From assembly GCA_012813795.1 (NCBI GenBank), contig GCA_012813795.1_4087.1: a stretch of 64,000 bases of DNA; one strand, 5' to 3'. Both the position numbers and the translations under genes were made by a program. A model generated the notes under the pieces. It was given only the letters and a program-made list of their open reading frames with translations. It had not been told where the DNA came from and did no database searches. Positions 46,530 to 60,524 of this stretch are shown here, piece after piece (position 1 is the first letter of the stretch; every line of letters begins with the position of its first letter). The stretch comes from a phage.

Positions 46530-46808
46530 TTATAAAAAAGTTAAATCTTCAGTACTTAATTGTACAAAACATTTGTTAGTTTCATTGTCAACCAGAATTT
46601 CAACATACACCTTCACTTCATGAATTGTTACAATTCTATGAATCACACCAACAGTAGTTCCATCTATATATGGTAGCTCAACCCAACGACCAACCAATTT
46701 ATCACTTAAATGGTCTTTCATTTGTTGGTTGGTATCATTGATTATTGTATCGAGTGATTTTTTAAAAAAGTTAAATTCGGTTAATGAACTATCAATCATG
46801 TCATGCAT
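46530..46808 (-). CDS. Small-protein paralog family member
   Basis: 92 aa; N-terminal helix then DKLVGRWVEL motif of the K-x-[YL]-[IV]-G-[KR] family. Confidence 0.45.
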   Translation of the reverse strand: MHDMIDSSLTEFNFFKKSLDTIINDTNQQMKDHLSDKLVGRWVELPYIDGTTVGVIHRIVTIHEVKVYVEILVDNETNKCFVQLSTEDLTFL

Positions 46809-46813
46809 AATAA

Positions 46814-47557
46814 TTACCTCTTGAATCGACTAAATGAATATTCGTCTTTTTCTTTACGCAAATAACACATCTTACCACCTTGAGGGGTAGCAATAGTCAA
46901 ATCACCAGTAAGAAACTGACTGTCAATCCAGATACGGTTACCATAAATGAGGGGATCAAACACGGCAGTATGCCCACTAAGTACATAATCTACGTTGGTA
47001 ATACGTGATGCATTAAAGACGTTGTTGGCTTTACAGAAATCAAATGTCTTTCTGTCCCATAGGCATGACTCAATTGTATCACTGGACATTGATTTTGTCC
47101 CAGTAATGAACTTATTCCAGTCAGTGTGCTTAAGGTCTACACTTGCATGTACGAGGCCAATCTTGAGTCCTCTGTGATTGATTTGGATAATCATAGGTAG
47201 CTGGTTCAAGTACTGACGGAAGAATTCCACTCCTGATACACCAACTTCTTCCAGGAACTTATCGCCCCCATTCTGTGTCCAGCAATGATACCAGTCACGA
47301 TGAGTTGCAGAATCAACACACATCGATTCATGATTGCCCATGATCATATATCGATTCTCAGCGAATAAAAACTCAAACAAAAGGTGAGCACTTTGCTCAC
47401 CTCTGTCAATTAAATCGCCTAAACTGAATACATAATCTTCAGGAGTAATACCAAATTCTTTCTTGGTATGTTCCCATAGTTTTGCATTACCGTGAATGTC
47501 TCCTACTATATACAAATCTTTTTCATCAGGAACTGTTACTTCTAAGAAATGTTTCAT
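46814..47557 (-). CDS. Ser/Thr protein phosphatase (lambda-PPase/ApaH-like)
   Basis: GDIHGN, GDLIDRG and GNHE phosphoesterase signature motifs. Confidence 0.75.
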   Translation of the reverse strand: MKHFLEVTVPDEKDLYIVGDIHGNAKLWEHTKKEFGITPEDYVFSLGDLIDRGEQSAHLLFEFLFAENRYMIMGNHESMCVDSATHRDWYHCWTQNGGDKFLEEVGVSGVEFFRQYLNQLPMIIQINHRGLKIGLVHASVDLKHTDWNKFITGTKSMSSDTIESCLWDRKTFDFCKANNVFNASRITNVDYVLSGHTAVFDPLIYGNRIWIDSQFLTGDLTIATPQGGKMCYLRKEKDEYSFSRFKR

Positions 47558-47808
47558 TGTTCTTTAATCCATATAATTCTATCATAGGTGACAACTTGAG
47601 TATTGGCAATTTGGTCATTGACATAGCAATCTACGTAATATCGCACATCACCATGATATGTTCCCATATCTCTTATGCATATTTTTTGCCAACCTCTGGA
47701 GTGTTTAAGAAGAATTTCTTGACCAATATATTTGTGCTTAGCACGTTGGACAAAATCATCATATAACGATTGTAACATCTTTAACTGTTCAATTTCAGTC
47801 TTTGTCAT
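47554..47808 (-). CDS. Small-protein paralog family member
   Basis: 84 aa; KHKYIGQEILL motif. Confidence 0.45.
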   Translation of the reverse strand: MTKTEIEQLKMLQSLYDDFVQRAKHKYIGQEILLKHSRGWQKICIRDMGTYHGDVRYYVDCYVNDQIANTQVVTYDRIIWIKEQ

Positions 47809-48031
47809 GTTTCTTCTTCTTGAATTTTGTTAGTGTATTGTAAAAATCTTTACAGATTGAAATGAAAAGATACACCAACGACACAGGCCACAGTACTGAT
47901 AACATAGAGCAGGTACTAATATTAATCATTGTGGTATGGGTATCTTTAAAAGAACCCCAGTTGATGATAAGAAAAGTACTCAAAAATGTACTCAGTACTC
48001 CTACACCATACAAAGCAAAAAATAAAATCAT
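47795..48031 (-). CDS. Small membrane protein
   Basis: Two hydrophobic helices. Confidence 0.4.
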   Translation of the reverse strand: MILFFALYGVGVLSTFLSTFLIINWGSFKDTHTTMINISTCSMLSVLWPVSLVYLFISICKDFYNTLTKFKKKKHDKD

Positions 48032-48376
48032 TTATTCCTCTTCTATTAGTTCTAAACGATCTAAACGGTAAGTGAATCCGTACCATTCAGAACTTTTTGG
48101 ATTTTCATATTCCACATCAACATAGATTGATGAATTCTTTACTCGCAACAAAGTAATAAACATAACTGTATTTTCGTTGATATGAGAAGCTTCATCATCA
48201 CAATAAATCCAGTCAGAATCTACTTCATCCTCCTTAGCCTTATTGATGTGGTCAATATACTCTTGAGTGAATTTTACTTTTTTGCCTATTAATTTATTTT
48301 TTAAGGTACTAACGAATTCTGATTGAAGATCAAGGAGAGATTCGAAGTACCTTAGTTCAGATGATAACGGAACCAT
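48032..48376 (-). CDS. Small-protein paralog family member
   Basis: 114 aa; KNKLIGKKVKF motif. Confidence 0.45.
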   Translation of the reverse strand: MVPLSSELRYFESLLDLQSEFVSTLKNKLIGKKVKFTQEYIDHINKAKEDEVDSDWIYCDDEASHINENTVMFITLLRVKNSSIYVDVEYENPKSSEWYGFTYRLDRLELIEEE

Positions 48377-48984
48377 TAATCACAGCTTCCTGAACTTGAG
48401 CTTGAACTATCACAAGAGCCACTATCATAAGAGGAAGATGAGTCGCTATAGGATGAAGTACTGATAATTGCGGCAGTTGTTGCTGCTGTCAGTAGAACAG
48501 TGCTTGTACCATCATCAGTACTGGTAGTACTGGAAGATGCTTCCTTATCAGTTTTAGTGCTTTTGCGAGTTGTACTGGTTTTTTTGGTATTTTTAGTGCT
48601 AGTCTTGCGACCTTTTGTTTTCTTAGAAGTTTTTGCTTTTGTTTTAGTTGTTGGTGCTTTTGGTTGTGGTTCTTCTTTTACTGGAACTTCTTCCTGAACT
48701 GATTTAACTTCTTCAGCAGCACCATCAATGTAAACGTCATCAACTGTTAAAGTTGGCGTATATCCTTCAAAAACTGGTACATCATGTACTGCTTTATCAC
48801 GATTATCGTCAATGACTAGTGACATGTCACGGCGACCCATAATAATGAGTAAACCTAGTTCTAGTACTGGCGTAAAAATAATACCAAATACTGTGTATAC
48901 CAGTGCATTACGGTTGTAAGATTTTGCCAAAAACCAACCAATAACCAGACCAAGTACGTATAGTACGTATAGTGCATAAATCAT
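48376..48984 (-). CDS. Membrane-anchored protein with basic K/T-rich and Ser-rich low-complexity tail
   Basis: N-terminal transmembrane helices, then TKTKAKTSKKTKGRK ... SSSSYDSGSCDSSSSSSGSCD. Confidence 0.45.
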   Translation of the reverse strand: MIYALYVLYVLGLVIGWFLAKSYNRNALVYTVFGIIFTPVLELGLLIIMGRRDMSLVIDDNRDKAVHDVPVFEGYTPTLTVDDVYIDGAAEEVKSVQEEVPVKEEPQPKAPTTKTKAKTSKKTKGRKTSTKNTKKTSTTRKSTKTDKEASSSTTSTDDGTSTVLLTAATTAAIISTSSYSDSSSSYDSGSCDSSSSSSGSCD

Positions 48985-49280
48985 AGTATGACTCCTTTAA
49001 TTACAATTATTTTACCGATATCTTCGATATAATTAGAAAAGTGATAGTTGTCTTGGTATATCAACCACGCACCAAACCCATCTACTATTTCGATTATATT
49101 AATTTCTTCAATTGGATTATTTTTACATTCAGCAACGAACGGACAAAAATAATCATTTAAAATTTGAAGATATATTTTACTTACCTCTAACCATTCAGTT
49201 CTATTATAGTATTTGTCAAAAATAAAAGTTTCCCACAGAAGTTTATATGTTTCTTCTGCTTCATATAATGTTTTAATCAT
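48981..49280 (-). CDS. hypothetical protein
   Basis: 99-aa ORF. Confidence 0.4.
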   Translation of the reverse strand: MIKTLYEAEETYKLLWETFIFDKYYNRTEWLEVSKIYLQILNDYFCPFVAECKNNPIEEINIIEIVDGFGAWLIYQDNYHFSNYIEDIGKIIVIKGVIL

Positions 49281-49579
49281 ATACTAATAATTTCGTTAGT
49301 GGATACTACTCTTCCGTACATCAATGGGATTACGTACACATTTGGAATCGAAATCCCCACTGATTTAATTGTATCACATAGCTCATTATTTGTCCTGGCA
49401 TTTTTGAACTTTATTTCTCTACCTTCAAATGCATCAATAACAGATTGTGAATATGAATCCATTAACACCCTGAAGTTAATCATCATAGTTGGGTAGTCTA
49501 GTATCCCCTCAATTCGCATATCATGGCACGTTCTGAATAGCATAATGTATGTTTTATGACAAAGTAATAGTTCATTCAT
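49277..49579 (-). CDS. hypothetical protein
   Basis: 100-aa ORF. Confidence 0.4.
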   Translation of the reverse strand: MNELLLCHKTYIMLFRTCHDMRIEGILDYPTMMINFRVLMDSYSQSVIDAFEGREIKFKNARTNNELCDTIKSVGISIPNVYVIPLMYGRVVSTNEIISI

Positions 49580-49893
49580 ATGAAAATCTCATCCAGATAC
49601 AATGTAGTACTGGGTCTGTCTGTATTAACATCAGTACTGCAATCAATCATCAGACCGTAGTCAGTACCCCATATTTGCTTGATATAAATGTCATAATCAC
49701 GACTGGTATTTGCTTCATATACTACATTATTATAAAAAAGATCAGTCAATTCGTAATAGAAATCTTTAACAAGTTTATTCACCTCTTTTCTGTACATATC
49801 CATCTCAACGTTATCAATGTACAATAACCATTTCAGACAATAATTAAAATGATTCTCGTACATTATTAATTTATTATATTCTTCTTGTGTCAT
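49576..49893 (-). CDS. hypothetical protein, paralog of 49890-50213
   Basis: IWGTDYGLMIDC ... YLDEIFI parallels VFGTSHGIFVDY ... MYIEEIEL in the neighbour. Confidence 0.45.
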   Translation of the reverse strand: MTQEEYNKLIMYENHFNYCLKWLLYIDNVEMDMYRKEVNKLVKDFYYELTDLFYNNVVYEANTSRDYDIYIKQIWGTDYGLMIDCSTDVNTDRPSTTLYLDEIFI

Positions 49894-50213
49894 AGTTCAA
49901 TCTCTTCTATGTACATACTATTTTCTGTGTACGGATCAAATGGGTGTATTTTATAATCAACAAAGATTCCATGTGATGTACCAAAAACACCATGAATATA
50001 TACAATTTCATCTTCGCACTTAATAGTTCTGTACTTAAATCTCTTTTCCAATGATTCATATATTTCACTAATTATACAGTTAATATAGTTCTTAAACTGA
50101 CGGTTTGATTTAGTGCATTGTTCTTCAAGAAGTATATTATATATAATCAGAAAGTGTCTGTTTATATAATTCAAATAATCTAATTCACTTTTTGTTATTA
50201 AAGTGTTGCTCAT
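49890..50213 (-). CDS. hypothetical protein, paralog of 49576-49893
   Basis: 107-aa ORF, tandem paralog. Confidence 0.45.
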   Translation of the reverse strand: MSNTLITKSELDYLNYINRHFLIIYNILLEEQCTKSNRQFKNYINCIISEIYESLEKRFKYRTIKCEDEIVYIHGVFGTSHGIFVDYKIHPFDPYTENSMYIEEIEL

Positions 50214-50601
50214 ATATAATCTCTATCTCGTTTGAATCGTAATATGCTTTATGGGTTCTTGTTTTATTTTGGTATTTTATTTTGGTTTTGATAAAATATA
50301 TAACCTTTTTCCATTCATAATACACGTACTCAATTTTACCATAGTCACCAGTACTAAGTAATACTTTTTTACCTTTGTACAGTTCTTGTAATTGTGTTTT
50401 ATAATCCTCAAGAAATCTACTTTCAAAAATTTTTACATCACTTTCCATCACAAGGTCGATAAGAATAGCAAGATGCCTATCCAATAATAGTAAGTTCTCT
50501 TGATCGTATTGCATAATATCTTTGTCCATTATCAGATTTTGCCGTATACATGTATGCCCCATAAGAATATGATATGTTGGTAATTTCAACTTCTCTTCCA
50601 A
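50185..50601 (-). CDS. Small-protein paralog family member (start uncertain)
   Basis: ELYKGKKVLL motif; N-terminal part of track ORF overlaps upstream gene, true start probably internal. Confidence 0.35.
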   Translation of the reverse strand: MEEKLKLPTYHILMGHTCIRQNLIMDKDIMQYDQENLLLLDRHLAILIDLVMESDVKIFESRFLEDYKTQLQELYKGKKVLLSTGDYGKIEYVYYEWKKVIYFIKTKIKYQNKTRTHKAYYDSNEIEIIYEQHFNNKK

Positions 50602-50782
50602 GATATATAGCTTTTGTTCCTACGTATTTTTTAAGCAGTGGTGTAGTTAGTTCAAGGAGATAGGTTTCAAGGAAATCGGAAATATCATAAGATGGATAAT
50701 AATCATCCATTTGGGTATGAAAGAAACGACGTGTATCTCTTATTAATTTCACGTGCCTGTCATACAATTCTAATTTCGTCAT
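50477..50782 (-). CDS. Small-protein paralog family member (start uncertain)
   Basis: KKYVGTKAIYLGREVEI motif; track ORF begins at a TTG, so trimmed to ATG at 50782. Confidence 0.35.
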   Translation of the reverse strand: MTKLELYDRHVKLIRDTRRFFHTQMDDYYPSYDISDFLETYLLELTTPLLKKYVGTKAIYLGREVEITNISYSYGAYMYTAKSDNGQRYYAIRSRELTIIG

Positions 50783-51041
50783 ATGTTGCATCCCATAAAA
50801 AACCTGCTCGTTCGCACCTGTACAAAATATTACCATTCCATGTCGCCACTTCAATAATTGTCCAAGTTAAATCAGTATCATCTAGAACATTGACACCAAA
50901 AACCGATTTAGACAATTCGTTCTCGTAATTATCCATCAGTACTGATAATGATGTTAGTAATCTTTCATCGGATTCTGAAAAATATAAACTACGTAAAATA
51001 CGATAATGATAATAAAAAAACTTCAATGAATCATTATTCAT
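50760..51041 (-). CDS. hypothetical small protein
   Basis: 93-aa ORF. Confidence 0.4.
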   Translation of the reverse strand: MNNDSLKFFYYHYRILRSLYFSESDERLLTSLSVLMDNYENELSKSVFGVNVLDDTDLTWTIIEVATWNGNILYRCERAGFLWDATYDEIRIV

Positions 51042-51343
51042 GAAAAAATAAACCTCGAATATATTCTTGAGCGAAATGTTATATCACTTGGGATATATTT
51101 GCAACAAAGGTATGGATATCCGTAAGTACTGGATTCGATTTCGGTAATAATAACATCACTACCTCGATATTTGCACTGAACATTTGAGTATTTTTTATTC
51201 AAAAAGTCAAGATATTCATCATGGAAATAAATGAGTTGTTCTTCAAACTTGTATTGTTTTTCATTATACATTGCAAGAGATTCTTCTTTAAGAAGATATA
51301 ATGTTTTCATTAATGCTTGGAATTCATTCGTATTCATATCCAT
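51038..51343 (-). CDS. hypothetical small protein
   Basis: 101-aa ORF. Confidence 0.4.
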   Translation of the reverse strand: MDMNTNEFQALMKTLYLLKEESLAMYNEKQYKFEEQLIYFHDEYLDFLNKKYSNVQCKYRGSDVIITEIESSTYGYPYLCCKYIPSDITFRSRIYSRFIFS

Positions 51344-51590
51344 CCACTGTAGTTATTGTTGCTCGCGTTGTGAATTGGTATCTATGCCCATACATATCAA
51401 CGCCAGATACAACTATATTATTGTTAGTATCAAGATATACTGAATCAATTTTAATAATGCGTTCCCAGTCACTTGTATCATAGACACATTTAACATATGT
51501 ATCTTTATATTTTTCTGATAGTTGCTTTACTAAATTTTTCAGTACTTGAATATGTGAATTAACAAATTGGAAATCTATATTAATATTCAT
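51324..51590 (-). CDS. hypothetical small protein
   Basis: 88-aa ORF. Confidence 0.4.
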   Translation of the reverse strand: MNINIDFQFVNSHIQVLKNLVKQLSEKYKDTYVKCVYDTSDWERIIKIDSVYLDTNNNIVVSGVDMYGHRYQFTTRATITTVDGYEYE

Positions 51591-51592
51591 GT

Positions 51593-51853
51593 TTATTCAT
51601 CCGATATAGATAATTCAGAGATAATTTTTACCATATGTTCACCCAAGAAATCGTTAGATCCAGTTAGGAATATTTTAGCTTTTATTTTAATTTCATCACT
51701 AAGTGGAGAATAATAAATCTCTACAATTTGCCCACGTCTTCCAGTTGATAAACATGTAGCAATTTTGCCTATGTACTTGATTCGCAACTCTTCCATTAGG
51801 GAGTGTAAAACCAACTGGCATTGTTTGAAATGTACATCATAACTATTATCCAT
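51593..51853 (-). CDS. Small-protein paralog family member
   Basis: 86 aa; RIKYIGKIATCL motif. Confidence 0.45.
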   Translation of the reverse strand: MDNSYDVHFKQCQLVLHSLMEELRIKYIGKIATCLSTGRRGQIVEIYYSPLSDEIKIKAKIFLTGSNDFLGEHMVKIISELSISDE

Positions 51854-51868
51854 TATATCACCTAAATT

Positions 51869-51897
51869 AAAAGAAAAGGGATCAGTACTGATCCCTT
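51869..51897 (-). terminator. Intrinsic terminator candidate after pseT; stem is a perfect palindrome centred on AGTACT
   Basis: aagggatcagtactgatccctt (51876-51897) perfect 22-nt palindrome followed on the minus strand by ttttctt. Confidence 0.5.
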
Positions 51898-51905
51898 TGT
51901 AATAA

Positions 51906-52838
51906 TCAAAATAGTCCAGGTTCCACCTGAAATACTTTCAAGCCTAGTAGCTTACGCCACATGAATACAACTTGTGATCTATCATCAAATACTTTCTTAA
52001 CATCGTAATGATTAACAACGTTATTCATATACAACTCGAATTTGACAACATCATCAGGACGTTTATCATCGATAGCTCGCATTAACAATACATCGTAGGG
52101 AATGCCCCAATTCTTAAGCCACTGTTCAGTATCAGCACGACACCCTTCAGTACGCCCACTCATGACGATTACCTTACGCTTATGGAAAACAGCCTCAGCA
52201 ATGACAGACAGAATTACTTCTTCATCTGGTGTATCCTGAAGGACAGTACTTTCATCAAACGGGTTACGTCCCCACTTATGAGCAAGAGTACCGTCGATAT
52301 CAACAATGATAGCAGCTTCACGTGCATTACCATAGTAACCAATGTGCATCGCCTTACTATAATAGTACGTATTTGCCATAGTGTCAATGATTTCATCTTG
52401 TACTGAACGCTCACGCTGGAGGTTATATTTCTTACAAAGTTTTACGAACTCTTTAATCTTAAAGAATTCATGAACATCTGCACCACGGTCTTCATTAGGT
52501 ACAAAATCATCATAGAAGTTCTTTTCTTTGTAATCATAACCATTATCTTTAGCCCACATTTTCCATTGATCACGGAAATGTGGTTTAAGGTTCGTATCGG
52601 ATACGATGATATTCCAACTATTCTCCGCTGCTGAATTTGCTGCACTGAACTGTAAATTAGTTACGTACTTCTCATTAGCATCGTTGAATTTGTAAGCATC
52701 ATGTGACCCAGCCATAGATTCACGAATATCATCACGGTTGATGTTGATAGTCTTGGATTTGGCTTTTTTAATCTCTTGCACTGCCCATGTAGTTTTACCA
52801 CACCCTGGCAATCCAACTGTTAGTGTAATAGTTGGCAT
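51906..52838 (-). CDS. pseT: Polynucleotide 5'-kinase / 3'-phosphatase
   Basis: N-terminal Walker A GLPGCGKTT and C-terminal HAD phosphatase motif IVDIDGTLA. Confidence 0.85.
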   Translation of the reverse strand: MPTITLTVGLPGCGKTTWAVQEIKKAKSKTININRDDIRESMAGSHDAYKFNDANEKYVTNLQFSAANSAAENSWNIIVSDTNLKPHFRDQWKMWAKDNGYDYKEKNFYDDFVPNEDRGADVHEFFKIKEFVKLCKKYNLQRERSVQDEIIDTMANTYYYSKAMHIGYYGNAREAAIIVDIDGTLAHKWGRNPFDESTVLQDTPDEEVILSVIAEAVFHKRKVIVMSGRTEGCRADTEQWLKNWGIPYDVLLMRAIDDKRPDDVVKFELYMNNVVNHYDVKKVFDDRSQVVFMWRKLLGLKVFQVEPGLF

Positions 52839-53150
52839 TTAATCCTCAATAAATTTCACATTCTTTAGATTGTACCACGAAAAACGTTCATGACGTGTGT
52901 TGTGTCCTATAGTTACTTCTACATAGCACTCGTCAGTAATGTGATGAGTAACTACATGAAATTTGACATTAACATCACTAATGATAGTTTCGAACCATGT
53001 TTTAGTGTTGTAATCCCAGCATTCAACTTTCTTACCAATGAGTGATTTCTTGTATTGTGTAATCATATCATGAACAATTTCAGAAATAGTATTAGTTAAT
53101 TCAATTTCTGCATTCATTAAATTATGAAGTTCTTTTAATGCTTTATTCAT
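52839..53150 (-). CDS. Small-protein paralog family member
   Basis: 103 aa; KKSLIGKKVECW motif. Confidence 0.45.
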   Translation of the reverse strand: MNKALKELHNLMNAEIELTNTISEIVHDMITQYKKSLIGKKVECWDYNTKTWFETIISDVNVKFHVVTHHITDECYVEVTIGHNTRHERFSWYNLKNVKFIED

Positions 53151-53422
53151 TAGATTACCTCAATAATATCATCAATTGAGATATCAATACAATTATCGAC
53201 AATGATATTCAATGTAAAATCATCATCTACATATACATTAGTGATTTTACCATAAACATTCATCCCATCATAAGATGATTTATAACGTACTCTTTTGTTA
53301 ATATATTTTGCACGTAGAGTATTACTCTCACGGTACAATATATCCGTCAAACATTCTGATAGTACTTTATAATATAACAAATCACTTGAATGATTGTTTT
53401 TCATTGTATTTCCCAACTCCAA
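53150..53422 (-). CDS. Small-protein paralog family member
   Basis: 90 aa; RAKYINKRVRYK motif. Confidence 0.4.
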   Translation of the reverse strand: MELGNTMKNNHSSDLLYYKVLSECLTDILYRESNTLRAKYINKRVRYKSSYDGMNVYGKITNVYVDDDFTLNIIVDNCIDISIDDIIEVI

Positions 53423-53911: not shown

Positions 53912-55057
53912 CTAAAAATCCTTTAGTACATCTTTGTAGTACTTTAGTAAAGTCTCTTTATAATCGACACTTTTGCCATTGTACAACGCAAAGGCCAAGC
54001 CTTGTCGGTTCAATACATTAGGTAAATCTTGCTGAACCTTTTGAGCGAATTCCTTTCGCTCTAAGTGCTTGTATGCATGGACGAAGCTTTCTACCTCATC
54101 TTGTAAAGCATTATAGCACGAAAATACCAATTGTTCCATTCTTAATATCTTATCCATAGCATATGTATCAGTACTGAACAATTGTTTTAAGTCATCACTT
54201 GCACCAGTCAGTACAGCTTCATATAAATGGGAATCAATAAGAATGGAATCTTTTGTTAAATGCAAAGAGCAATACCAGTCAGTTTTGATTTTGCACATTG
54301 TACCATCTTTCATTATACACACAAAACCTTCAATGTCAAGCATAGAACGTACTTTATCGATTGACTCTTTAAATGTAGGCATAATCGGGAATGTATGATG
54401 AATGTCATTACCTGTCATATTAGTACTGTACTGTGAAAGGCATGGAAACTTATCACGTAGTGCTTTACCGCATAACAACTCACCACTAATACGATGACGA
54501 ACGTTAAGAACAAATAACTGTTCCACCTGATATGGTAACACAATTCGATACTCTGGGCTTGTGTATTCCAGATTCACAGTATAGCCCAAACGGTCTGCTT
54601 CATCAATGTATTGATAGAGATTTTGGTTCTCGTTCAAAAGTCGAGTACTGTTAATAGCATGGTCAGAAGATAACGAAGTGTGTGATTTACAACGGATTTC
54701 ACCATCGTTATCACGGAATGTGCTGATGATAGAACCATCTAGCTTAGGCATTACAACCGCAATATCATCACAGGTAGTATCAGTACTGAACATTGTGTAC
54801 GGGTTTTCATATGCATTGAAGAACTTTTTCATTGTACGTGCTGCACAACGAATCATAATTCCGTTGGAATCGATTTCCCACATAGAACCACGAGTTTCTA
54901 GTGCATTTTTATTTGTGAAATCGGTATAAGATGCCAGACGATAGGTGAATACACGGTATAAACCACCACCAGGGCTTGTATGATCTATATAGAAAAATGC
55001 ATCATTAGATTCACATAGTTCCATTAAATCATTGTATATTTCTCGCAAATTACTCAT
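53912..55057 (-). CDS. rnlA: RNA ligase 1
   Basis: Nucleotidyltransferase motif I VVMPKLDGSI (KxDG); N-terminus LMELCESNDAFFY and VCIMKDGTMCKIKTDWY parallel T4 Rnl1 as recalled. Confidence 0.85.
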   Translation of the reverse strand: MSNLREIYNDLMELCESNDAFFYIDHTSPGGGLYRVFTYRLASYTDFTNKNALETRGSMWEIDSNGIMIRCAARTMKKFFNAYENPYTMFSTDTTCDDIAVVMPKLDGSIISTFRDNDGEIRCKSHTSLSSDHAINSTRLLNENQNLYQYIDEADRLGYTVNLEYTSPEYRIVLPYQVEQLFVLNVRHRISGELLCGKALRDKFPCLSQYSTNMTGNDIHHTFPIMPTFKESIDKVRSMLDIEGFVCIMKDGTMCKIKTDWYCSLHLTKDSILIDSHLYEAVLTGASDDLKQLFSTDTYAMDKILRMEQLVFSCYNALQDEVESFVHAYKHLERKEFAQKVQQDLPNVLNRQGLAFALYNGKSVDYKETLLKYYKDVLKDF

Positions 55058-55362
55058 CTAATTACCTCTATATCTACATCTGTGCCATAGTAGGAAACGT
55101 AACCATTATCTGACTTACATTGAATTGATAACTCTGATTCATAGTATGTTACTTTGTTCACTGTTAGAACTTTTTCTTCAATTTCTCCCGTTAAATAATC
55201 CATTTCACGAACACGAACGTTGGTTCCTTTTGGGAGTTCTTGTGCAATTTTATTAACAAGTTCAAAAGCAGCTTCTTCAAGTGTGTGCAACAATTGCAAT
55301 CTATCTTGGATATTCATATTATTTCCACCAACTGGTATCTCGACCACCAGACAAAGATTCAT
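55054..55362 (-). CDS. hypothetical small protein
   Basis: 102-aa ORF. Confidence 0.4.
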   Translation of the reverse strand: MNLCLVVEIPVGGNNMNIQDRLQLLHTLEEAAFELVNKIAQELPKGTNVRVREMDYLTGEIEEKVLTVNKVTYYESELSIQCKSDNGYVSYYGTDVDIEVIR

Positions 55363-56008
55363 TGTACTGATGCCTGAAATTAGTATTTGGATTATTTGTC
55401 ATTGTACTAATAAAATCAAATTTAGTGTTCTCTTGGATATATTCAATAACACTATCTTTAAACTTGATAGTACTGAAATCTAAATCCAAATGTTCATACG
55501 ATACTGGATGACAAAACTCATGATTACACAATGATCTCATCGTATCTTTAATGTATTGTACGGTGTTAATCATTGCTTCATAGTCTGGCATTGCACGCAT
55601 CATCATAAGCTGGAAGTGTTCTTCCTCTGTCATTGATTCATCCAAATCAATAACAACTTCTTCATTCTTAGAGTCATATACTTTAATCTTACTATTCGTA
55701 GGGTCAAGCATAGCCCAATCAGGGTACAGGCATGTTTTCCAGAAAGGATTATTACACTGAAACATACTGACCAGTACTTGATTTTTATCGAAGATTGCAA
55801 AACCAAGATCATTACTGGGCTGTACTTCACACACATATATATCATATGCAGAGTCTTCAGTGCAGAATGAACCAACTACATTTGATATATGAGTGTATGG
55901 AGTTTCTCTTGATTTTAATTCAAAGGCTCTCTCCATGCGGTTAATCTGTGGTTGTAAAGTAATTACACCCCTTAGTACATATAAAATTCTATCTAAATCT
56001 TTAATCAA
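55319..56008 (-). CDS. hypothetical protein
   Basis: 229-aa ORF. Confidence 0.45.
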   Translation of the reverse strand: MIKDLDRILYVLRGVITLQPQINRMERAFELKSRETPYTHISNVVGSFCTEDSAYDIYVCEVQPSNDLGFAIFDKNQVLVSMFQCNNPFWKTCLYPDWAMLDPTNSKIKVYDSKNEEVVIDLDESMTEEEHFQLMMMRAMPDYEAMINTVQYIKDTMRSLCNHEFCHPVSYEHLDLDFSTIKFKDSVIEYIQENTKFDFISTMTNNPNTNFRHQYNESLSGGRDTSWWK

Positions 56009-56583
56009 AATTCTATCCCCGTGTCGGTTAATTTTGCCCCGTCCATGTACCTGACAGTTATTTCAATACGACTCTCGGTACTCAATTTCTGAAGTTCACT
56101 GTAGTACAATTTAAATTCTTCAAAGAACTCAAACGGTGGAATATCGAATAGAGTACTCATCTGGAAGTGCTCAGGTAAGCCAAAATCTAATATATTAATC
56201 TTAGGAATAAGACCATCTGATGCTGCACCTTCAGGTGTACTGCTATCTGCTATATAAAACATAGAATCACCATGACGCTGGATAACGAATATACAATCAT
56301 CTTCAGTTACATAAATTATATTTCCTAGGTATGGATCATTATCACACCACTCATCATGGACGAGTTCTTCAACTTGAAGTAAATCTTTTATAATTCCCTG
56401 CCCACTATCATCAACTCGAATATGTAAACTAGAATCATCTTTACTCAACCAGCGGTATCTGGCATCTGATTCTGATTCCATGAATGGATATTTGGAAAAA
56501 TCCATATCAGTACCGTTATAATACCAATTGTACCACTCATTACGCATAGTAATCAGCTTAGTACTTAATTCTACAATATTCAT
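56005..56583 (-). CDS. hypothetical protein
   Basis: 192-aa ORF. Confidence 0.45.
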   Translation of the reverse strand: MNIVELSTKLITMRNEWYNWYYNGTDMDFSKYPFMESESDARYRWLSKDDSSLHIRVDDSGQGIIKDLLQVEELVHDEWCDNDPYLGNIIYVTEDDCIFVIQRHGDSMFYIADSSTPEGAASDGLIPKINILDFGLPEHFQMSTLFDIPPFEFFEEFKLYYSELQKLSTESRIEITVRYMDGAKLTDTGIEF

Positions 56584-56879
56584 TTTAGTTTTAACCTTTT
56601 AGCAACATATTCTCTTAATTTTCCATCAGGAAGTTCTACTACAAAATATGGATGATATGTTAGTCTCAGTGTAACCCTTTTTATTACACCTCGGTCATAT
56701 GATATGGGAATTCCATAGGGATCATCAATTTCAACTTCCTTGCCATATAACATTGCATTGCAGGTATAGGTGTATTGCGTGAGTATACCGTGCATAGCAC
56801 TGACGGAACCACCACTGCTCCATCTGGCAGCATCTGCGAGCATTGTTATCGTACTACTAACTAATTGTATTTTGTCCAT
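56580..56879 (-). CDS. Small-protein paralog family member
   Basis: 99 aa; AMLYGKEVEI motif. Confidence 0.4.
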   Translation of the reverse strand: MDKIQLVSSTITMLADAARWSSGGSVSAMHGILTQYTYTCNAMLYGKEVEIDDPYGIPISYDRGVIKRVTLRLTYHPYFVVELPDGKLREYVAKRLKLK

Positions 56880-56922
56880 AATGTACCTACAAAAAAGACC
56901 AGCAATCCATGCTGGCCTGTAC

Positions 56923-57201
56923 TTATTTTAATTCTTTATACGTGTATATACCAACAGTATCATTTGAGAAAATAATATAAAAATACACACCATGTGTATC
57001 AAAATCAATTTCATCAATGATACCTGATTTATTCATTGATTTATGTGTAACTTCTTTATTAGTATAAAGTGGAATAAACTCAGAAGAAAAATCATCTATC
57101 AAAGCCCTTATATCGTCTATGTATGGTTTATTTTTAATATACATATCACCATAAAGTTCTAAAAGATATTCATATATCCACACATCTCTTTGTAAATTCA
57201 T
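56923..57201 (-). CDS. hypothetical small protein
   Basis: 92-aa ORF. Confidence 0.4.
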   Translation of the reverse strand: MNLQRDVWIYEYLLELYGDMYIKNKPYIDDIRALIDDFSSEFIPLYTNKEVTHKSMNKSGIIDEIDFDTHGVYFYIIFSNDTVGIYTYKELK

Positions 57202-57209
57202 AACTTACC

Positions 57210-57938
57210 TTAGAAGTAAATCATACCAAGTAATTCAGAATCATCAGGTCTGTTATAATCTTGCTTCTTAACTTTGAAGTAGAAAGACTCATGTTCTTCT
57301 AAATTATATCTCTTTTTAAGGCAACGTGTATAAGTTTGACAGTTAGGTGTGACCCATTCATAAATGTGGACACCATTCTCATCATAACCATTTACACTAC
57401 AACGATTGCCTTCGTGCTTTTTGTAGTTTTTACTCTTTTCAGTAAATTCACGAGCACATGTGGTATGTGGTTTTTTATAATCAAAAGGTACTTCAGTTAT
57501 ACGGAAATAATAGAAAAATTCGTCTTCATCATATCCCAAGAGCACTGTGTTAGTTTCACGTACATTGTAATGATTCTTACTTTTTGCTTCATTTTCGTAT
57601 ATATCTTTCAGTACTTCATCAAATACTACATCACTTGCAGCATTCGGGTTTGACACACCTGATACACGGCGTTCAATAATAAAATCGGTAAACTTACGTT
57701 CTTCTTCAATATCACCGTTCATATACAGACTAACAAACTTATCCTTGTATGTTTTGACTGAATATTGTTTACCTTGCACTTCACTGTATACATCAGCTAG
57801 TAAATTCTCTTGTCCGCATTGGACACCACTTACTGAATATGCAGTTGCATGTTCTGCCATTACGGATGTTAGCATTTGGAAATTTGCAATGTTTAATTGG
57901 TTTGCTAACTCGCTGGCAAATCTGATACGGTCAATCAC
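57210..57938 (-). CDS. hypothetical protein
   Basis: 242-aa ORF. Confidence 0.5.
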   Translation of the reverse strand: MIDRIRFASELANQLNIANFQMLTSVMAEHATAYSVSGVQCGQENLLADVYSEVQGKQYSVKTYKDKFVSLYMNGDIEEERKFTDFIIERRVSGVSNPNAASDVVFDEVLKDIYENEAKSKNHYNVRETNTVLLGYDEDEFFYYFRITEVPFDYKKPHTTCAREFTEKSKNYKKHEGNRCSVNGYDENGVHIYEWVTPNCQTYTRCLKKRYNLEEHESFYFKVKKQDYNRPDDSELLGMIYF

Positions 57939-57996
57939 TCTACACGCTCCTTGTGTTAGATATTATTCCATACCAACAATTATATCACTACTTATA

Positions 57997-58299
57997 CTAC
58001 TGTCCCGCTTTATAACAATAAAGATTCTCTAATTTGAAGTCCGCAAGGTCACATTCAGAACGTACTCGGTTCTTGTTCCAGTACAAAATACGAATCCTTT
58101 CATAATCACGATAAACACTAATAATGCTTTTGTGCTTGGATTTATAGTATTCCTGCACAGTCACAAGATACACGGTCCTCAATAAAGACTTAATGGGATA
58201 GGGCATATTCTGTGCTGTAGTAATACTATAAATCATCTTCATTGTTTCAGCAATAAGTACTTCATTTGTTTGATTTGTCATTGAAATCCTTACATACAC
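57997..58299 (-). CDS. hypothetical small protein
   Basis: 100-aa ORF. Confidence 0.4.
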   Translation of the reverse strand: MYVRISMTNQTNEVLIAETMKMIYSITTAQNMPYPIKSLLRTVYLVTVQEYYKSKHKSIISVYRDYERIRILYWNKNRVRSECDLADFKLENLYCYKAGQ

Positions 58300-58444
58300 T
58301 ATGTAAAGTAAATCCTAAACCTACACCTACGAATGGGAATAGTAAATTAATGTACCAGACATTCATTGTCGATAAGAAACAAATCCCACCTACTGTCAGT
58401 ACTGCAAGAGAAAAAAGACTCCAGATAAAAAATAATGTTCTCAT
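58262..58444 (-). CDS. Small membrane protein
   Basis: 60 aa, two hydrophobic helices. Confidence 0.35.
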   Translation of the reverse strand: MRTLFFIWSLFSLAVLTVGGICFLSTMNVWYINLLFPFVGVGLGFTLHSVCKDFNDKSNK

Positions 58445-58731
58445 AAAAAGGTTACCTCATCGAATGAAAAGTTTAAGTACGTTGGTGAATTTTGGTCTAA
58501 ACTATGAATGGTAATATGACCATTGAAATAAAAAGAAACATCTTCTACTTGAAGTTTTGGATATTTTCTAGTACTGAAATATCTTCCTACTACTAAGTCA
58601 GAAAACATATTTCTGTATTCTTGTGTTACGTTTTTGTATAGGTTATGTAGAGCACTTTCTTGTGAATCGAAAGTAATGGAATAATCTTTCACCAATATAG
58701 CATATGTTTTCTGTATTAAAATAATATTCAC
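58441..58731 (-). CDS. Small-protein paralog family member
   Basis: 96 aa; DLVVGRYFST motif. Confidence 0.4.
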   Translation of the reverse strand: MNIILIQKTYAILVKDYSITFDSQESALHNLYKNVTQEYRNMFSDLVVGRYFSTRKYPKLQVEDVSFYFNGHITIHSLDQNSPTYLNFSFDEVTFL

Positions 58732-58991
58732 AAATCACCTAAGATTTCAAAAATTATTGATACTGGGTATACTGGGTTATCAGTTGAAGTAATACATACT
58801 ATTAGTACGTTTTTTCCGGGTGCTATATCTTTTATCGTGAAATTAAAATCATTAAGATTCAGTGATTTTCCAAGATAATGTTCTTTTAAGGATTCAATAA
58901 AATAGTCCAGTACTGGATTATCTGCACCACAGGATAACTCAGTACTGGCTATCATTTTATATGTATGAACTATTAGTTCAGCTTTAGTCAT
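58728..58991 (-). CDS. hypothetical small protein
   Basis: Track ORF trimmed to ATG at 58991, which overlaps the upstream stop as ATGACTAA. Confidence 0.4.
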   Translation of the reverse strand: MTKAELIVHTYKMIASTELSCGADNPVLDYFIESLKEHYLGKSLNLNDFNFTIKDIAPGKNVLIVCITSTDNPVYPVSIIFEILGDL

Positions 58992-59184
58992 GTACACGCT
59001 CACAATTAAGGCAATAAATGCACTCAATGTCTGGTCGCCATGATTTATCAAAATCTTTGTGCTGTTCTTCAGTGTATTCCGCATCATCATTGATGGGAAA
59101 GAAATCCCCAGCACCAGTGGCCCAGTCTGAATCTAAGCGGAAACGAGCTAATTGAGTACTGTTACAATATGGACACTTATTCAA
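58984..59184 (-). CDS. Small zinc-ribbon protein
   Basis: CPYC ... CIYCLNC paired Cys motifs. Confidence 0.4.
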   Translation of the reverse strand: MNKCPYCNSTQLARFRLDSDWATGAGDFFPINDDAEYTEEQHKDFDKSWRPDIECIYCLNCERVHD

Positions 59185-59464
59185 AATTTATTCCTTCTAA
59201 CTGATATACGTTTAATGAAAATGACCCACTATTATTATCGCATCTGAAACACAGTGTTAAAGAACCATTAAAACTAACGACATCCGTACAGGTACATTTT
59301 TCACCATTGGATATGATAGATTTTCCTATATATAAATCTCTTACTATAGTACGGTAATGTTGCCATAAAAAATAATACACACTTTCATAGTACTCATCTG
59401 TTACATATGACAAGTATAAGAATCTATAAAATACTTGTATTTCCTTTAAGTTGTTTTTCATCAT
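59177..59464 (-). CDS. Small-protein paralog, member of 5-gene tandem array
   Basis: RDLYIGKSIISNGEKCTCTDVVSFNGSL aligns with the three genes upstream. Confidence 0.45.
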   Translation of the reverse strand: MMKNNLKEIQVFYRFLYLSYVTDEYYESVYYFLWQHYRTIVRDLYIGKSIISNGEKCTCTDVVSFNGSLTLCFRCDNNSGSFSLNVYQLEGINFE

Positions 59465-59724
59465 TTAAAATCCAGTAAATTTATACCAATGAAGTCCCCG
59501 TCTCTGCGGTAGAATTCTAAACGCAACCTACCTCTATGACTTACTACATCAGTACAACGATAGTTTTTATTATTTCTACGTATTGGAAGTCCTATAAAAT
59601 GATGTTGTATCTCAGATAGATAATTTGACCATATTTTATTATGTACTTCATAGTAGAAACCTAATTCGTTATTCATATCATCATATAAAAGTTGATACGT
59701 GAATTGTAAATCATGATAGTTCAT
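59461..59724 (-). CDS. Small-protein paralog, member of 5-gene tandem array
   Basis: MNYHDLQFTYQLLY ... HHFIGLPI ... RCTDVVSHRGRL. Confidence 0.5.
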   Translation of the reverse strand: MNYHDLQFTYQLLYDDMNNELGFYYEVHNKIWSNYLSEIQHHFIGLPIRRNNKNYRCTDVVSHRGRLRLEFYRRDGDFIGINLLDFK

Positions 59725-59996
59725 AGGTACTCCAAATCAACAAATCCGCTTTTCGCCTTTTCATTGTTATAGTAAATTCCAACAAGACTTCCATTATAAC
59801 TTTTAATTCTGATAATACGTACAGTCATGTCGTCAATCATATATTCTTTATCAACAAAAATCTCGTTAATCATTGCCAAATATTCACACCACAATGTAAG
59901 AAAAAAATCTCGTTCATCGTAAGTTAATATTCCTTCACCACGTTCATATTGTTCATGAAGAATTTTGTACGTGAATTGTAAATCCTTATAATTCAT
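59721..59996 (-). CDS. Small-protein paralog, member of 5-gene tandem array
   Basis: Trimmed to ATG at 59996 so protein begins MNYKDLQFTYKIL like its neighbours. Confidence 0.45.
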   Translation of the reverse strand: MNYKDLQFTYKILHEQYERGEGILTYDERDFFLTLWCEYLAMINEIFVDKEYMIDDMTVRIIRIKSYNGSLVGIYYNNEKAKSGFVDLEYL

Positions 59997-60252
59997 AGAT
60001 ATAAATCTCATGTAATCCATCACTAGAATCTCTACCCCTGAAGCATAGATCCCCGTTGTAACTATCAACTTGAAATATTTTTACTGTTTTACCTTCGTAT
60101 TGAATTATAGTACCTATAAAATGTTCACGTAAAGATTTTATATAATCACTCCACAAACGATGATAAAATGCATTATCCATGCAGTTGTTATCAGCGTAAC
60201 GATACATATAAAATGTTAGTTTATAGGTGAAATGTAAATCCTTATAATTCAT
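59986..60252 (-). CDS. Small-protein paralog, member of 5-gene tandem array
   Basis: MNYKDLHFTYKL ... EHFIGTIIQYEGK ... VDSYNGDL. Confidence 0.5.
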   Translation of the reverse strand: MNYKDLHFTYKLTFYMYRYADNNCMDNAFYHRLWSDYIKSLREHFIGTIIQYEGKTVKIFQVDSYNGDLCFRGRDSSDGLHEIYIYEL

Positions 60253-60524
60253 TATAATATCTCTAAATTTATAGATTGTTGTCCAATAATAGAATCAGTA
60301 TAGAATAACACAATTTCACCACCTATACTATCAACGCGTGTTAGCTTACGCATTTCACCATCTATAAAGATTTCGTTAGCGTAAAAGTAATTTTGAATCA
60401 TTGTAAAATATTCATTCCATATAATATAAACTGGATTTTTATAAATGATAGGATTATGTACTTTACTTTCAATATATGTTTTGTATAAAGCTTTATATGT
60501 TCTATTCAGTACTCGATAATCCAT
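60252..60524 (-). CDS. Small-protein paralog, member of 5-gene tandem array
   Basis: MDYRVLNRTYKALY ... RVDSIGGEI. Confidence 0.45.
   Translation of the reverse strand: MDYRVLNRTYKALYKTYIESKVHNPIIYKNPVYIIWNEYFTMIQNYFYANEIFIDGEMRKLTRVDSIGGEIVLFYTDSIIGQQSINLEIL

What the first reader, a model, noticed from the sequence alone, without database searches (positions are those of the whole stretch)
46530..60524. Expanded family of small paralogous proteins, including a five-gene tandem array
At least 12-15 genes of 85-115 aa in this interval share an architecture: an N-terminal helix rich in L/Y, then a basic-x-[Y/L/F]-[I/V]-G-[K/R/Q] motif (KLVGRWV, KYIGQEI, KLIGKKV, LYKGKKV, KYVGTKA, KYIGKIA, SLIGKKV, LYIGKSI, HFIGLPI, HFIGTII, MLYGKEV, LVVGRYF), then a beta-rich C-terminal part. 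Genes 59177-60524 form five consecutive members with near-identical N-termini (MNYKDLQFTYKL / MNYHDLQFTYQL / MNYKDLHFTYKL / MDYRVLNRTYKAL). A second pair of tandem paralogs lies at 49576-50213. Such a lineage-specific expansion of small proteins next to RNA-repair genes (pseT, rnlA) is typical of a host-takeover or anti-defence diversification hotspot, but the family function is unknown to me.
Basis: seen in the sequence. Interest (0 to 1): 0.65.

Follow-up and report, generated by a model that had tools for sequence, protein, structure and literature searches.

The report
Expanded small-protein family in jumbo phage
A giant E. coli phage carries about 19-23 very diverged copies of one small, non-enzymatic protein (a helical stalk plus an SH3-like barrel) packed around its RNA-repair genes; the family is real, restricted to this phage lineage and fast-evolving, but what it does is still unknown.

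Summary
The window comes from an Asteriusvirus jumbo phage, 98% identical to Escherichia phage A4.

- **Five-gene array:** genes 59177-60524 are clear paralogues by plain BLASTP.
- **Wider family:** profile methods with decoys and real negative controls join the array to 14 more genes between 46530 and 58991. That gives 19 robust members, plus 4 marginal ones (57997, 55054, 51593, 50185).
- **Structure:** AlphaFold2 gives an N-terminal helix or helical hairpin followed by a 4-5-stranded SH3/Tudor-like barrel (pLDDT 95 and 83). The "K-x-[YLF]-[IV]-G-[KR]" motif is the helix-to-barrel junction, not an active site. Only core residues are conserved, and most members are acidic.
- **Known families:** nothing matches in Pfam, NCBIfam, PADLOC or by PDB sequence. 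A scan of 1.84 billion protein representatives found only 22 relatives, all from this lineage.
- **Evolution:** copy number varies between relatives (23, 18, 18, at least 13, at least 12, and 0 in GAP32 and BF). Most copies are 30-45% identical to their SP27 counterparts, while neighbouring enzymes are 75-96% identical.

Function is unproven. My best guess is early-expressed binders of host or defence proteins. This is a new, undescribed example of a known phenomenon: lineage-specific expansion in a plastic phage region.

The parts
60252..60524 (-). Array member 1 (90 aa), robust family member
   Evidence: BLASTP to other array genes E 8e-6 to 4e-4. The array group scores 95.8%, P 7e-9 in leave-one-out hhalign.
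59986..60252 (-). Array member 2 (88 aa), robust; the protein modelled in AF2 model 1
   Evidence: BLASTP E 9e-9. AF2 pLDDT 95.2: helices 3-22 and 27-45, strands 49-52, 55-65, 68-74 and 80-84.
59721..59996 (-). Array member 3 (91 aa; true start is the internal ATG at 59996), robust
   Evidence: BLASTP. Start agrees with the A4 annotation and with P0012.
59461..59724 (-). Array member 4 (87 aa), robust
   Evidence: BLASTP. tblastn finds it in only 36 of 50,697 phage records, all Escherichia or Salmonella phages and all below 50% identity except A4.
59177..59464 (-). Array member 5 (95 aa), robust
   Evidence: BLASTP. 97% identical to its SP27 ortholog.
58728..58991 (-). Family member (87 aa), robust
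   Evidence: hhalign to the array group 80%. Leave-one-out hhalign 72.8%, P 3e-5. Leave-one-out HMM E 1.3e-6.
58441..58731 (-). Family member (96 aa, GTG start), robust
   Evidence: hhalign to the array group 84%. Leave-one-out hhalign 91.8%, P 7e-7. Leave-one-out HMM E 8e-7.
57997..58281 (-). Marginal member (94 aa, basic, pI 9.2)
   Evidence: Taken in by the iterative HMM, but not recovered in the leave-one-out HMM. Leave-one-out hhalign 20%, P 1.1e-3.
56923..57201 (-). Family member (92 aa), robust
   Evidence: Leave-one-out HMM E 2.4e-7. Leave-one-out hhalign 57%, P 1e-4.
55054..55317 (-). Marginal member (87 aa)
   Evidence: Iterative HMM. Its RaK2 ortholog is recovered at E 7e-7. Leave-one-out hhalign is only P 6e-3.
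53150..53404 (-). Family member (84 aa), robust
   Evidence: Leave-one-out HMM E 1.5e-5. Leave-one-out hhalign 57%, P 1e-4.
52839..53150 (-). Family member (103 aa), robust; the protein modelled in AF2 model 2
   Evidence: Leave-one-out hhalign 84.6%, P 7e-6. AF2 using only non-array paralogues: pLDDT 83.3, helix 3-37 followed by 5 strands.
51593..51853 (-). Marginal member (86 aa)
   Evidence: Iterative HMM. Leave-one-out HMM E 6e-5 through its Turkey5 ortholog. Leave-one-out hhalign P 3.5e-3.
51324..51590 (-). Family member (88 aa), robust
   Evidence: Leave-one-out hhalign 92.2%, P 6e-7.
51038..51343 (-). Family member (101 aa), robust; no ortholog found in SP27, ph0011, Turkey5 or RaK2
   Evidence: Leave-one-out HMM E 1.2e-6. 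Leave-one-out hhalign 51%, P 1.6e-4. No ortholog by BLASTP.
50760..51041 (-). Family member (93 aa), robust by hhalign, marginal by HMM; lineage-restricted
   Evidence: Leave-one-out HMM E 8e-4. Leave-one-out hhalign 56%, P 1.2e-4 over 88 columns.
50477..50791 (-). Family member (104 aa), robust; intact but unannotated in phage A4
   Evidence: Leave-one-out HMM E 4.8e-6. Leave-one-out hhalign 44%, P 2.3e-4. tblastn to A4 gives 92% identity. P0018 is an ortholog.
50185..50514 (-). Marginal member (109 aa)
   Evidence: Iterative HMM only. Leave-one-out hhalign P 1.4e-3 over 22 columns.
49890..50213 (-). Family member (107 aa), robust; tandem paralogue of 49576
   Evidence: hhalign 96% to the 49576 group. 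Leave-one-out hhalign 88%, P 2.8e-6.
49576..49893 (-). Family member (105 aa), robust
   Evidence: hhalign 96% to 49890. Leave-one-out hhalign 38.5%, P 3.3e-4.
48032..48376 (-). Family member (114 aa, with an acidic insert), robust by hhalign
   Evidence: hhalign 76% to 47554 and 50% to 52839. Leave-one-out hhalign 78%, P 1.8e-5. Leave-one-out HMM E 5.5e-4.
47554..47808 (-). Family member (84 aa), robust
   Evidence: Leave-one-out hhalign 93.6%, P 2e-7. Leave-one-out HMM E 1.4e-7 for its cluster.
46530..46808 (-). Family member (92 aa), robust
   Evidence: Leave-one-out HMM E 1.2e-5. Leave-one-out hhalign 44%, P 2.3e-4 over 74 columns.
48981..49579 (-). Two small ORFs (48981-49280 and 49277-49579) that look like the family by eye (a "TY..L" helix-1 motif; AFEGREI in 49277) but are not statistically supported
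   Evidence: Leave-one-out hhalign P 0.13 and 0.0064. Not taken in by any HMM run.
56580..56879 (-).
   Evidence: hhalign P 0.02. Never taken in by the HMM.
61927..61955 (-). Perfect sigma-70 consensus promoter, oriented with the genes, upstream of the array block
   Evidence: Four perfect matches in the window, all on the minus strand, against 0.14 expected by chance.
54312..54339 (-). Perfect sigma-70 consensus promoter inside rnlA, oriented towards 53885-51906
60543..60564 (-). Terminator-like hairpin in the gap just upstream of the array
   Evidence: Similar intergenic hairpins lie at 56896-56918 and 51875-51898.

Best explanation
**What it is.** This is a lineage-specific multigene family of Asteriusvirus and Alcyoneusvirus jumbo phages. 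The window holds 19 robust and 4 marginal copies, two thirds of the small ORFs in a 14-kb stretch around pseT and rnlA. Each copy encodes an 84-114 aa soluble protein. The protein is an N-terminal helical stalk (one long helix or a two-helix hairpin) joined through a conserved [YLF]-x-G-[KR]-x-[VI] cap and turn to a 4-5-stranded SH3/Tudor-like barrel.

**Shown:**
- the homology between copies;
- the predicted fold;
- the restricted distribution;
- rapid divergence and copy-number change between related phages;
- purifying but relaxed selection.

**Inferred.** The proteins are non-enzymatic binders. They are transcribed by host RNA polymerase with the surrounding non-structural genes. Each copy uses a variable, mostly acidic surface on a constant core to bind, and so inhibit or redirect, a different host protein such as a defence or housekeeping factor. 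Tandem duplication followed by divergence, or replacement, adapts the set to different hosts.
For: **Family is real:** BLASTP within the array. Iterative HMM with 0 of 900 decoys and 0 of 69 real negative controls. Leave-one-out HMM. hhalign gave 14 of 435 in-region pairs at P<1e-3 against 0 of 900 region-versus-control pairs. Leave-one-out hhalign gave P 7e-9 to 3e-4 for 15 groups, against a best control of 0.037.

**Non-enzymatic:** the only well-conserved columns are hydrophobic core positions plus G47, K48 and G67. No polar residue is invariant.

**Acidic:** mean pI is 5.7, and net charge is -5 to -11 in 9 of 23 members.

**Fast turnover:**. Against A4, pN/pS is 0.35 for the family and 0.17 for its neighbours. 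Both are below 1, so these are working genes.

**Restricted distribution:** 22 representatives among 1.84 billion, and 36 phage records.

**Expression context:** all genes are co-oriented and tightly packed. Perfect sigma-70 promoters point the same way.

**Not virion proteins:** the phAPEC6 virion proteome lists nothing between gp347 and gp549, the span that should contain this locus (PMC7247149 Table 1; gene numbering inferred from 121Q, where the array gene is 425 and pseT is 443).
Against: - No binding partner, phenotype or expression timing has been measured.
- The family signal is weak. The iteration stalls at 20-33 proteins with a stricter threshold or another aligner, and most pairwise hhalign probabilities are below 50%.
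- The two AF2 models were not superposed on each other, and their top BFVD hits do not overlap.
- An SH3/Tudor-like barrel could equally bind nucleic acid.
- Elevated pN/pS may reflect relaxed constraint rather than an arms race.
- Five members (59177, 58441, 57997, 58728, 55054) are 79-97% conserved against SP27, so not every copy evolves fast.
Confidence: 0.45

Rival explanations
1. The proteins are RNA- or DNA-binding Sm/Tudor/KOW-like factors that work with the neighbouring RNA-repair and translation genes (PseT, RnlA, a PTH2-like hydrolase). They might, for example, present or protect broken tRNAs.
For: SH3/Tudor-like barrel. A conserved K/R follows the Gly at the start of strand 1. The genes are interleaved with pseT, rnlA and a PTH2-like gene. 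Model 2 has one N-terminal helix followed by five strands, the same element order as the Sm fold.
Confidence: 0.12
2. The wide family is an artefact. Only the five-gene array, its two neighbours (58441, 58728) and the 49576/49890 pair are truly related. The rest share a generic helix-then-beta layout and the AT-rich amino-acid composition, and were pulled in by profile drift.
For: No pairwise BLAST signal outside the array. PHROGs splits the proteins into about 20 separate families. The iteration depends on threshold and aligner. Many hhalign pair probabilities are below 50%.
Against: No decoy and none of 69 real small proteins of the same or related phages was ever recruited. Leave-one-out profile tests recover 15 groups at P<=3.3e-4 over near-full length, against 0.037 for the best control. 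An AF2 run on non-array members alone gives the same element order at pLDDT 83.
Confidence: 0.1
3. The proteins are virion-associated or assembly proteins, such as inner-body, decoration or chaperone components.
For: Jumbo phages of this group have many small uncharacterised virion proteins (PMC7247149).
Against: No phAPEC6 virion protein maps between gp347 and gp549. The locus lies among DNA/RNA-metabolism genes, not among structural genes. Small proteins can escape mass spectrometry, so this evidence is not absolute.
Confidence: 0.05
4. The genes are largely dispensable duplicates with little present function, tolerated in a plastic region of a very large genome.
For: Presence and absence vary between close relatives. 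pN/pS is twice that of the neighbours.
Against: All copies are intact in both A4 and the window. Pooled pN/pS is 0.35, well below 1. Most positions are retained across Asteriusvirus and RaK2.
Confidence: 0.1

Closest known systems
Hyperplastic regions of T4-type phages: clusters of small, early, non-essential ORFs that differ between relatives (Comeau et al. 2007 Virology; Arbiol et al. 2010 Genome Biol Evol; cited from my own knowledge, not read here)
   Same: The small co-oriented ORFs are packed between conserved replication and repair genes such as pseT and rnlA. Gene content and sequence vary strongly between related phages. Host-type promoters point the same way.
   Different: Here most of the ORFs are paralogues of one family rather than unrelated ORFans. 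No repeated promoter-stem-loop cassettes were found between the genes.
Lineage-specific expansions of small domains in jumbo phages, e.g. about 35 zinc-ribbon copies in Bacillus phage G (Iyer et al. 2021, PMC7824862); also the remark that about 10% of RaK2 proteins are paralogues (PMC3622015)
   Same: One small domain has multiplied to about 20 copies within one jumbo-phage lineage, and its function is unknown.
   Different: The fold is different (helical stalk plus SH3-like barrel, with no metal ligands). This family is not described in either paper.
SH3 / Tudor-like small beta-barrels (PDB 8jvz_B, 6hq9_B)
PHROGs phrog_32291 and phrog_21004 (both 'unknown function')
   Same: Five window proteins match each of them, with best E 2.5e-12 and 9.6e-12. 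These are presumably the five array genes, since only counts are reported.
   Different: PHROGs spreads the 31 small ORFs that were scanned over 23 separate families. The link between them is made only here.

Membership tests
The family proposed here (helical stalk + SH3-like barrel, Asteriusvirus/Alcyoneusvirus) | Significant profile similarity to the remaining members when the candidate's own ortholog group is left out | tested here: met
   15 groups (19 genes) score P 7e-9 to 3.3e-4. Four genes score 1e-3 to 6e-3. Controls score 0.037 or worse. Leave-one-out HMM results agree.
The family proposed here | Shared fold: N-terminal helix or helices, a Gly cap, then 4-5 strands | tested here: inconclusive
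   Two AF2 models from disjoint sets of paralogues have the same element order. They could not be superposed on each other, and only 2 of 23 members were modelled.
SH3-like / Tudor-like barrel fold | Small barrel of 4-5 antiparallel strands that superposes on known SH3 or Tudor domains | tested here: met
Sm / Hfq (LSM) proteins | Sm1/Sm2 sequence motifs, detected as an LSM or Hfq profile match | tested here: not met
Sm / Hfq (LSM) proteins | Ring-shaped hexamer or heptamer that binds RNA | not testable with these tools
   No multimer prediction or binding assay is available here.
MazF / CcdB / Kid SH3-like toxins | Profile match to PemK/MazF or CcdB, with an adjacent antitoxin | tested here: not met
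Any curated domain family (Pfam-A, NCBIfam) or defence-system protein (PADLOC) | Score above the curated or significant threshold | tested here: not met
   Best E values are 0.012 (Pfam), 0.022 (NCBIfam) and 0.017 (PADLOC). Each is a single protein far below the cut-off. The PDB sequence profile search gave a best E of 0.079.
Known anti-defence protein families (Ocr, Arn, Dmd, Tad, Acb, Acr and others) | Sequence or structure match to a characterised inhibitor | not testable with these tools
   No anti-defence library is available. None of these appeared among the PDB or BFVD hits, which is weak negative evidence only.

The most novel reading that the evidence does not exclude
The family is a phage-encoded repertoire of diversified binders on one stable scaffold (constant core, hypervariable acidic surface). 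Each copy would neutralise a different host immunity or stress effector, for instance anticodon nucleases and other abortive-infection proteins whose damage the adjacent PseT/RnlA repair. The copy set would then determine which E. coli, Klebsiella or Salmonella strains the jumbo phage can infect.
Probability: 0.2. Interest if true: 0.75.

Novelty: new member of a known kind. Interest (0 to 1): 0.45.

Why it matters
About 83% of the proteins of these 350-kb phages have no assigned function (PMC7247149). This result collapses 19-23 "hypothetical proteins", which PHROGs spreads over many separate families, into one family with a confident predicted fold. It shows that the family is the main content of a fast-changing region.

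That gives a concrete and tractable set of candidates for host-takeover or anti-defence screens in phages now being considered for therapy against E. coli and Klebsiella. If the copies prove to be target-specific binders, the scaffold would also be a natural example of repertoire diversification in a virus. As it stands, the finding is an annotation and evolution result, not a new mechanism.

Tried and rejected
- **Pairwise BLASTP** of all window ORFs found only the array. It missed the wider family and gave just E 0.025 for the 49576/49890 pair.
- **Curated libraries** (Pfam, NCBIfam, PADLOC, PDB sequence profile) gave nothing.
- **The search for homologous proteins** with the family profile returned only 10 near-orthologs. 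The word index and the 5.8-billion-sequence E-value scale limit it.
- **Iterative HMM** with mafft --auto and E<1e-4 or 1e-3 stalled at 20 or 33 members. I therefore did not rely on one run and added leave-one-out HMM and hhalign tests with real controls.
- **Generic promoter scan** showed no enrichment (89 found, 90.7 expected). Only the perfect-consensus search was informative.
- **Direct-repeat search** found no repeated regulatory cassettes between genes. It found only the shared 5' coding ends of three array genes.
- **The afdb50 fold library** was not available.
- **Loci fetched in parallel** (L003-L008, L012, L013) did not reach the Python sandbox. I re-fetched some singly and imported others through align_proteins.
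- **Phage CMSTMSU** (L008) was dropped because its record is full of frameshifts.
- **Literature searches** found no description of this family.
- **Hypotheses considered and rejected:** Sm/Hfq, MazF/CcdB, virion protein. See the rival explanations and the membership tests.

Full report
**Context.** The interval 46530-60524 is 98.0% identical over its whole length to Escherichia phage A4 (ON286972, genus Asteriusvirus, 355 kb). Other Asteriusviruses (SP27, PBECO4, 121Q, phAPEC6 and others) match by megablast only across window 51867-59490, at about 87% identity. The two ends of the interval are therefore too diverged to align at the DNA level. Every gene in the interval is on the minus strand. 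Recognisable neighbours are a PTH2-like hydrolase (45883-46302), a DnaJ/anti-TRAP-type zinc-finger protein (46293-46520), a Ser/Thr phosphatase (46814-47557), PseT (51906-52838) and RnlA (53912-55057). The same gene order is kept in RaK2, GAP32, CBB and Serratia phage BF.

**Checking the observation.** BLASTP of 111 window ORFs against each other confirms the five-gene array 59177-60524 (E 9e-9 to 6e-3, 25-35% identity). It hints at the pair 49576/49890 (E 0.025) and shows nothing else among the small ORFs. In PHROGs, five proteins hit phrog_32291 and phrog_21004, two further PHROGs are each hit by two proteins, and the rest fall in singleton families of unknown function. Pfam gives nothing.

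**Profile tests of the wide family.** I pooled small ORFs (145 aa or fewer) from the window and from the syntenic loci of SP27, Turkey5, ph0011, RaK2, GAP32 and BF. I added three shuffles and one reversal of every sequence as decoys.
- An iterative hmmbuild/hmmsearch run, seeded only with the five array genes (E<1e-3), converged on 83 proteins. These were 22 in the window, 18 in SP27, 18 in ph0011, 13 in Turkey5, 12 in RaK2, and none in GAP32 or BF.
- No decoy (0 of 900) and no window small ORF outside 46.5-60.5 kb (0 of 30) was recruited. An earlier run on a smaller pool behaved the same way.
- The result is sensitive to settings. With another aligner and E<1e-4 or 1e-3 the iteration stops at 20 or 33 members, although the next-best hits are still all real family candidates and never decoys.
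- I therefore added independent tests. In leave-one-cluster-out HMM searches most clusters are recovered by a profile of the others at E 1e-5 to 1e-8, while decoys reach at best about 1e-3.
- In group-against-group hhalign, 14 of 435 in-region pairs reach P<1e-3, against 0 of 900 pairs between region groups and control groups.
- In leave-one-group-out hhalign against the family profile, 15 groups (19 genes) reach P 7e-9 to 3.3e-4 over 49-88 aligned columns. The best of 30 window controls scores 0.037 and the best of 23 BF/GAP32 groups scores 0.11.

**Resulting membership.**
- *Robust (19):* 46530, 47554, 48032, 49576, 49890, 50477, 50760, 51038, 51324, 52839, 53150, 56923, 58441, 58728 and the five array genes.
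- *Marginal (4):* 57997, 55054, 51593 and 50185 (P 1e-3 to 6e-3).
- *Family-like by eye but unsupported:* 49277, 48981 and 56580.
- *Unrelated:* the two membrane ORFs (47795, 58262), the zinc proteins (46293, 58984), and 53382, 53628, 60570, 61165 and 61448.

**Structure.**
- *Model 1:* AlphaFold2 on 59986-60252, with the 20 window paralogues as the alignment, gives pLDDT 95.2 and pTM 0.80. It has helices 3-22 and 27-45, then strands 49-52, 55-65, 68-74 and 80-84.
- *Model 2:* 52839-53150, built from an alignment that excludes the array, 58441 and 58728, gives pLDDT 83.3. It has one long helix (3-37) followed by strands in the same order.
- *Viral models:* Foldseek against BFVD returns independently predicted models of uncharacterised proteins of 121Q, UB, RaK2 and PBECO4. 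It also returns many small SH3-like phage proteins, none with a known function.
- *Conservation:* in the 83-protein alignment the conserved columns are hydrophobic core positions plus G47, K48 and G67, numbered on 59986-60252. No polar residue is invariant.
- *Charge:* the proteins are mostly acidic (mean pI 5.7; net charge -5 to -11 for nine of them) and rich in aromatic residues.

**Distribution and evolution.**
- A full HMMER scan of 1.84 billion cluster representatives with the family profile finds only 22 proteins at E<=1e-3. All are 84-107 aa long and all are recognisable orthologs of the window genes or of their Asteriusvirus counterparts.
- tblastn of one array gene finds 36 of 50,697 phage records, all Escherichia or Salmonella Asteriusviruses. 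Apart from A4, none exceeds 50% identity.
- Detected family members per locus number 23 (window), 18 (SP27), 18 (ph0011), at least 13 (Turkey5), at least 12 (RaK2) and 0 (GAP32, BF). The block between pseT and 48032 holds ten small genes here but six in SP27.
- Against SP27 most members are 30-45% identical or have no detectable ortholog. By contrast PseT is 91%, RnlA 84%, the phosphatase 75% and the non-family small ORFs 53628 and 53382 are 94-96% identical. Five members (59177, 58441, 57997, 58728, 55054) are exceptions at 79-97%.
- Against the near-identical A4, all copies are intact. Pooled pN/pS is 0.35 for family genes (59 non-synonymous, 40 synonymous changes) and 0.17 for neighbours. 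The family is constrained, so these are real genes, but about twice as permissive as its neighbours.

**Expression context.**
- The genes are tightly packed, often with overlapping stop and start codons.
- Perfect TTGACA-N16-18-TATAAT promoters occur four times in the window, all on the coding (minus) strand, against 0.14 expected. Two lie at 61927-61955 and 54312-54339, pointing into family blocks.
- Intergenic terminator-like hairpins lie at 60543-60564, 56896-56918 and 51875-51898.
- The published virion proteome of phAPEC6, the same species as SP27, lists no protein between gp347 and gp549, the span that should include this locus (PMC7247149 Table 1). I infer the numbering from 121Q, where the array gene is 425 and pseT is 443.

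**Most likely mechanism.**
- *Shown:* one diverged family, a predicted stalk-plus-SH3-like fold, conservation limited to the core, acidic variable surfaces, narrow distribution, rapid turnover and purifying selection.
- *Inferred:* these are non-enzymatic binding proteins made from host-type promoters together with the surrounding non-structural genes. Each copy would engage a different host protein, and duplication and divergence would tune the set to the host.

I give the combined statement 0.45. The family itself I put at about 0.9, and the protein-binder role at about one half given the family.

**Rival explanations.**
- Nucleic-acid binding alongside RNA repair (0.12). Acidity, the lack of conserved basic residues, the absence of Sm/Hfq matches, and the absence of the family from GAP32 and BF, which keep pseT-rnlA, all argue against it.
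- Profile drift, so that only the array and its closest neighbours are truly related (0.10).
- Largely functionless duplicates (0.10).
- Virion or assembly proteins (0.05).

**Comparison with what is known.** In genomic behaviour this is closest to the hyperplastic regions of T4-type phages and to the lineage-specific expansions noted in jumbo phages. [quoted passage not shown] Neither paper describes this family, and no other paper in the searched library does. The barrel resembles the SH3/Tudor fold. Membership of Sm/Hfq, MazF/CcdB or any Pfam, NCBIfam or PADLOC family was tested and not met.

**Verdict.** I class it as a new member of a known kind of phenomenon, with moderate interest (0.45).

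**Limits.**
- Only 64 kb of the phage and 12-31 kb of each relative were examined.
- Only two members were modelled.
- The two models could not be superposed.
- No experimental data on expression or partners exist.

Noticed in passing
window 6857-6885, 22583-22611, 54312-54339, 61927-61955 (all minus strand): Four perfect sigma-70 consensus promoters (TTGACA-N16-18-TATAAT), all oriented with the genes, against 0.14 expected by chance. Two are intergenic and two lie inside coding regions (rnlA and the 61738-62277 gene). They suggest strong host-RNA-polymerase transcription of these blocks.
   Followed up: partly
window 59681-59729, 59953-60001, 60209-60257: The 5' ends of three array genes keep a 33-49 nt stretch at 69-80% DNA identity (the stretch encoding MNYKDLQFTYK), while the rest of these genes is only about 30% identical at the protein level. 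This points to gene conversion, or to a strong constraint on helix 1 or the translation-initiation region. The [LI]QFTY[KR] motif is also kept in diverged orthologs (P0019, P0022-P0025).
   Followed up: partly
window 28139-37883 (+ strand): Four consecutive large paralogues (541-1095 aa; BLASTP E 1e-20 to 1e-52) lie on the opposite strand, in a region of reversed GC skew. At least two carry a HYDIN/VesB-like Ig domain. They may be fibre or adhesin proteins.
   Followed up: partly
window 6903-9671, 9655-10245, 10256-12955; 5261-6834: More paralogue sets. Two proteins of about 900 aa (25% identity, E 1e-50) share a C-terminal module with a 196-aa protein. The neighbours 5764-6264 and 6274-6834 are also related (E 1e-12). 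None has a Pfam match.
   Followed up: no
window 48376-48984: A 202-aa protein with N-terminal membrane helices and a long Ser/Thr/Lys-rich low-complexity tail ending in poly-Ser. It is rich in indels relative to phage A4 (21 gap positions).
   Followed up: no
window 50477-50791; L001 6948-7253: This family gene is intact in phage A4 (92% protein identity) but is not annotated in the A4 GenBank record, which shows a gap there.
   Followed up: yes
window 51906-52838 (pseT): pseT is only 93.5% identical to A4 at the DNA level (pS 0.205), while flanking genes are 98-100% identical. This looks like a recombination patch in an otherwise near-identical pair of phages. 58728-58991 (92.0%) and 49890-50213 (95.4%) show the same pattern.
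   Followed up: partly
window 46293-46520 and 58984-59184: Two small Cys-rich proteins lie among the family genes. One is a DnaJ CxxCxGxG / anti-TRAP-like zinc finger (75 aa; Pfam E 1.7e-6, below the curated cut-off). The other is a 66-aa CxxC...CxxC zinc-ribbon-like ORF with no Pfam hit. Both are conserved across Asteriusviruses.
   Followed up: partly
window 53382-53618 and 53628-53885: Two small non-family ORFs between rnlA and pseT are the best-conserved small genes of the locus. They are 94-96% identical to SP27, and orthologs are detectable in RaK2, GAP32 and BF. The second is very basic. They probably have a core function linked to RNA repair.
   Followed up: no
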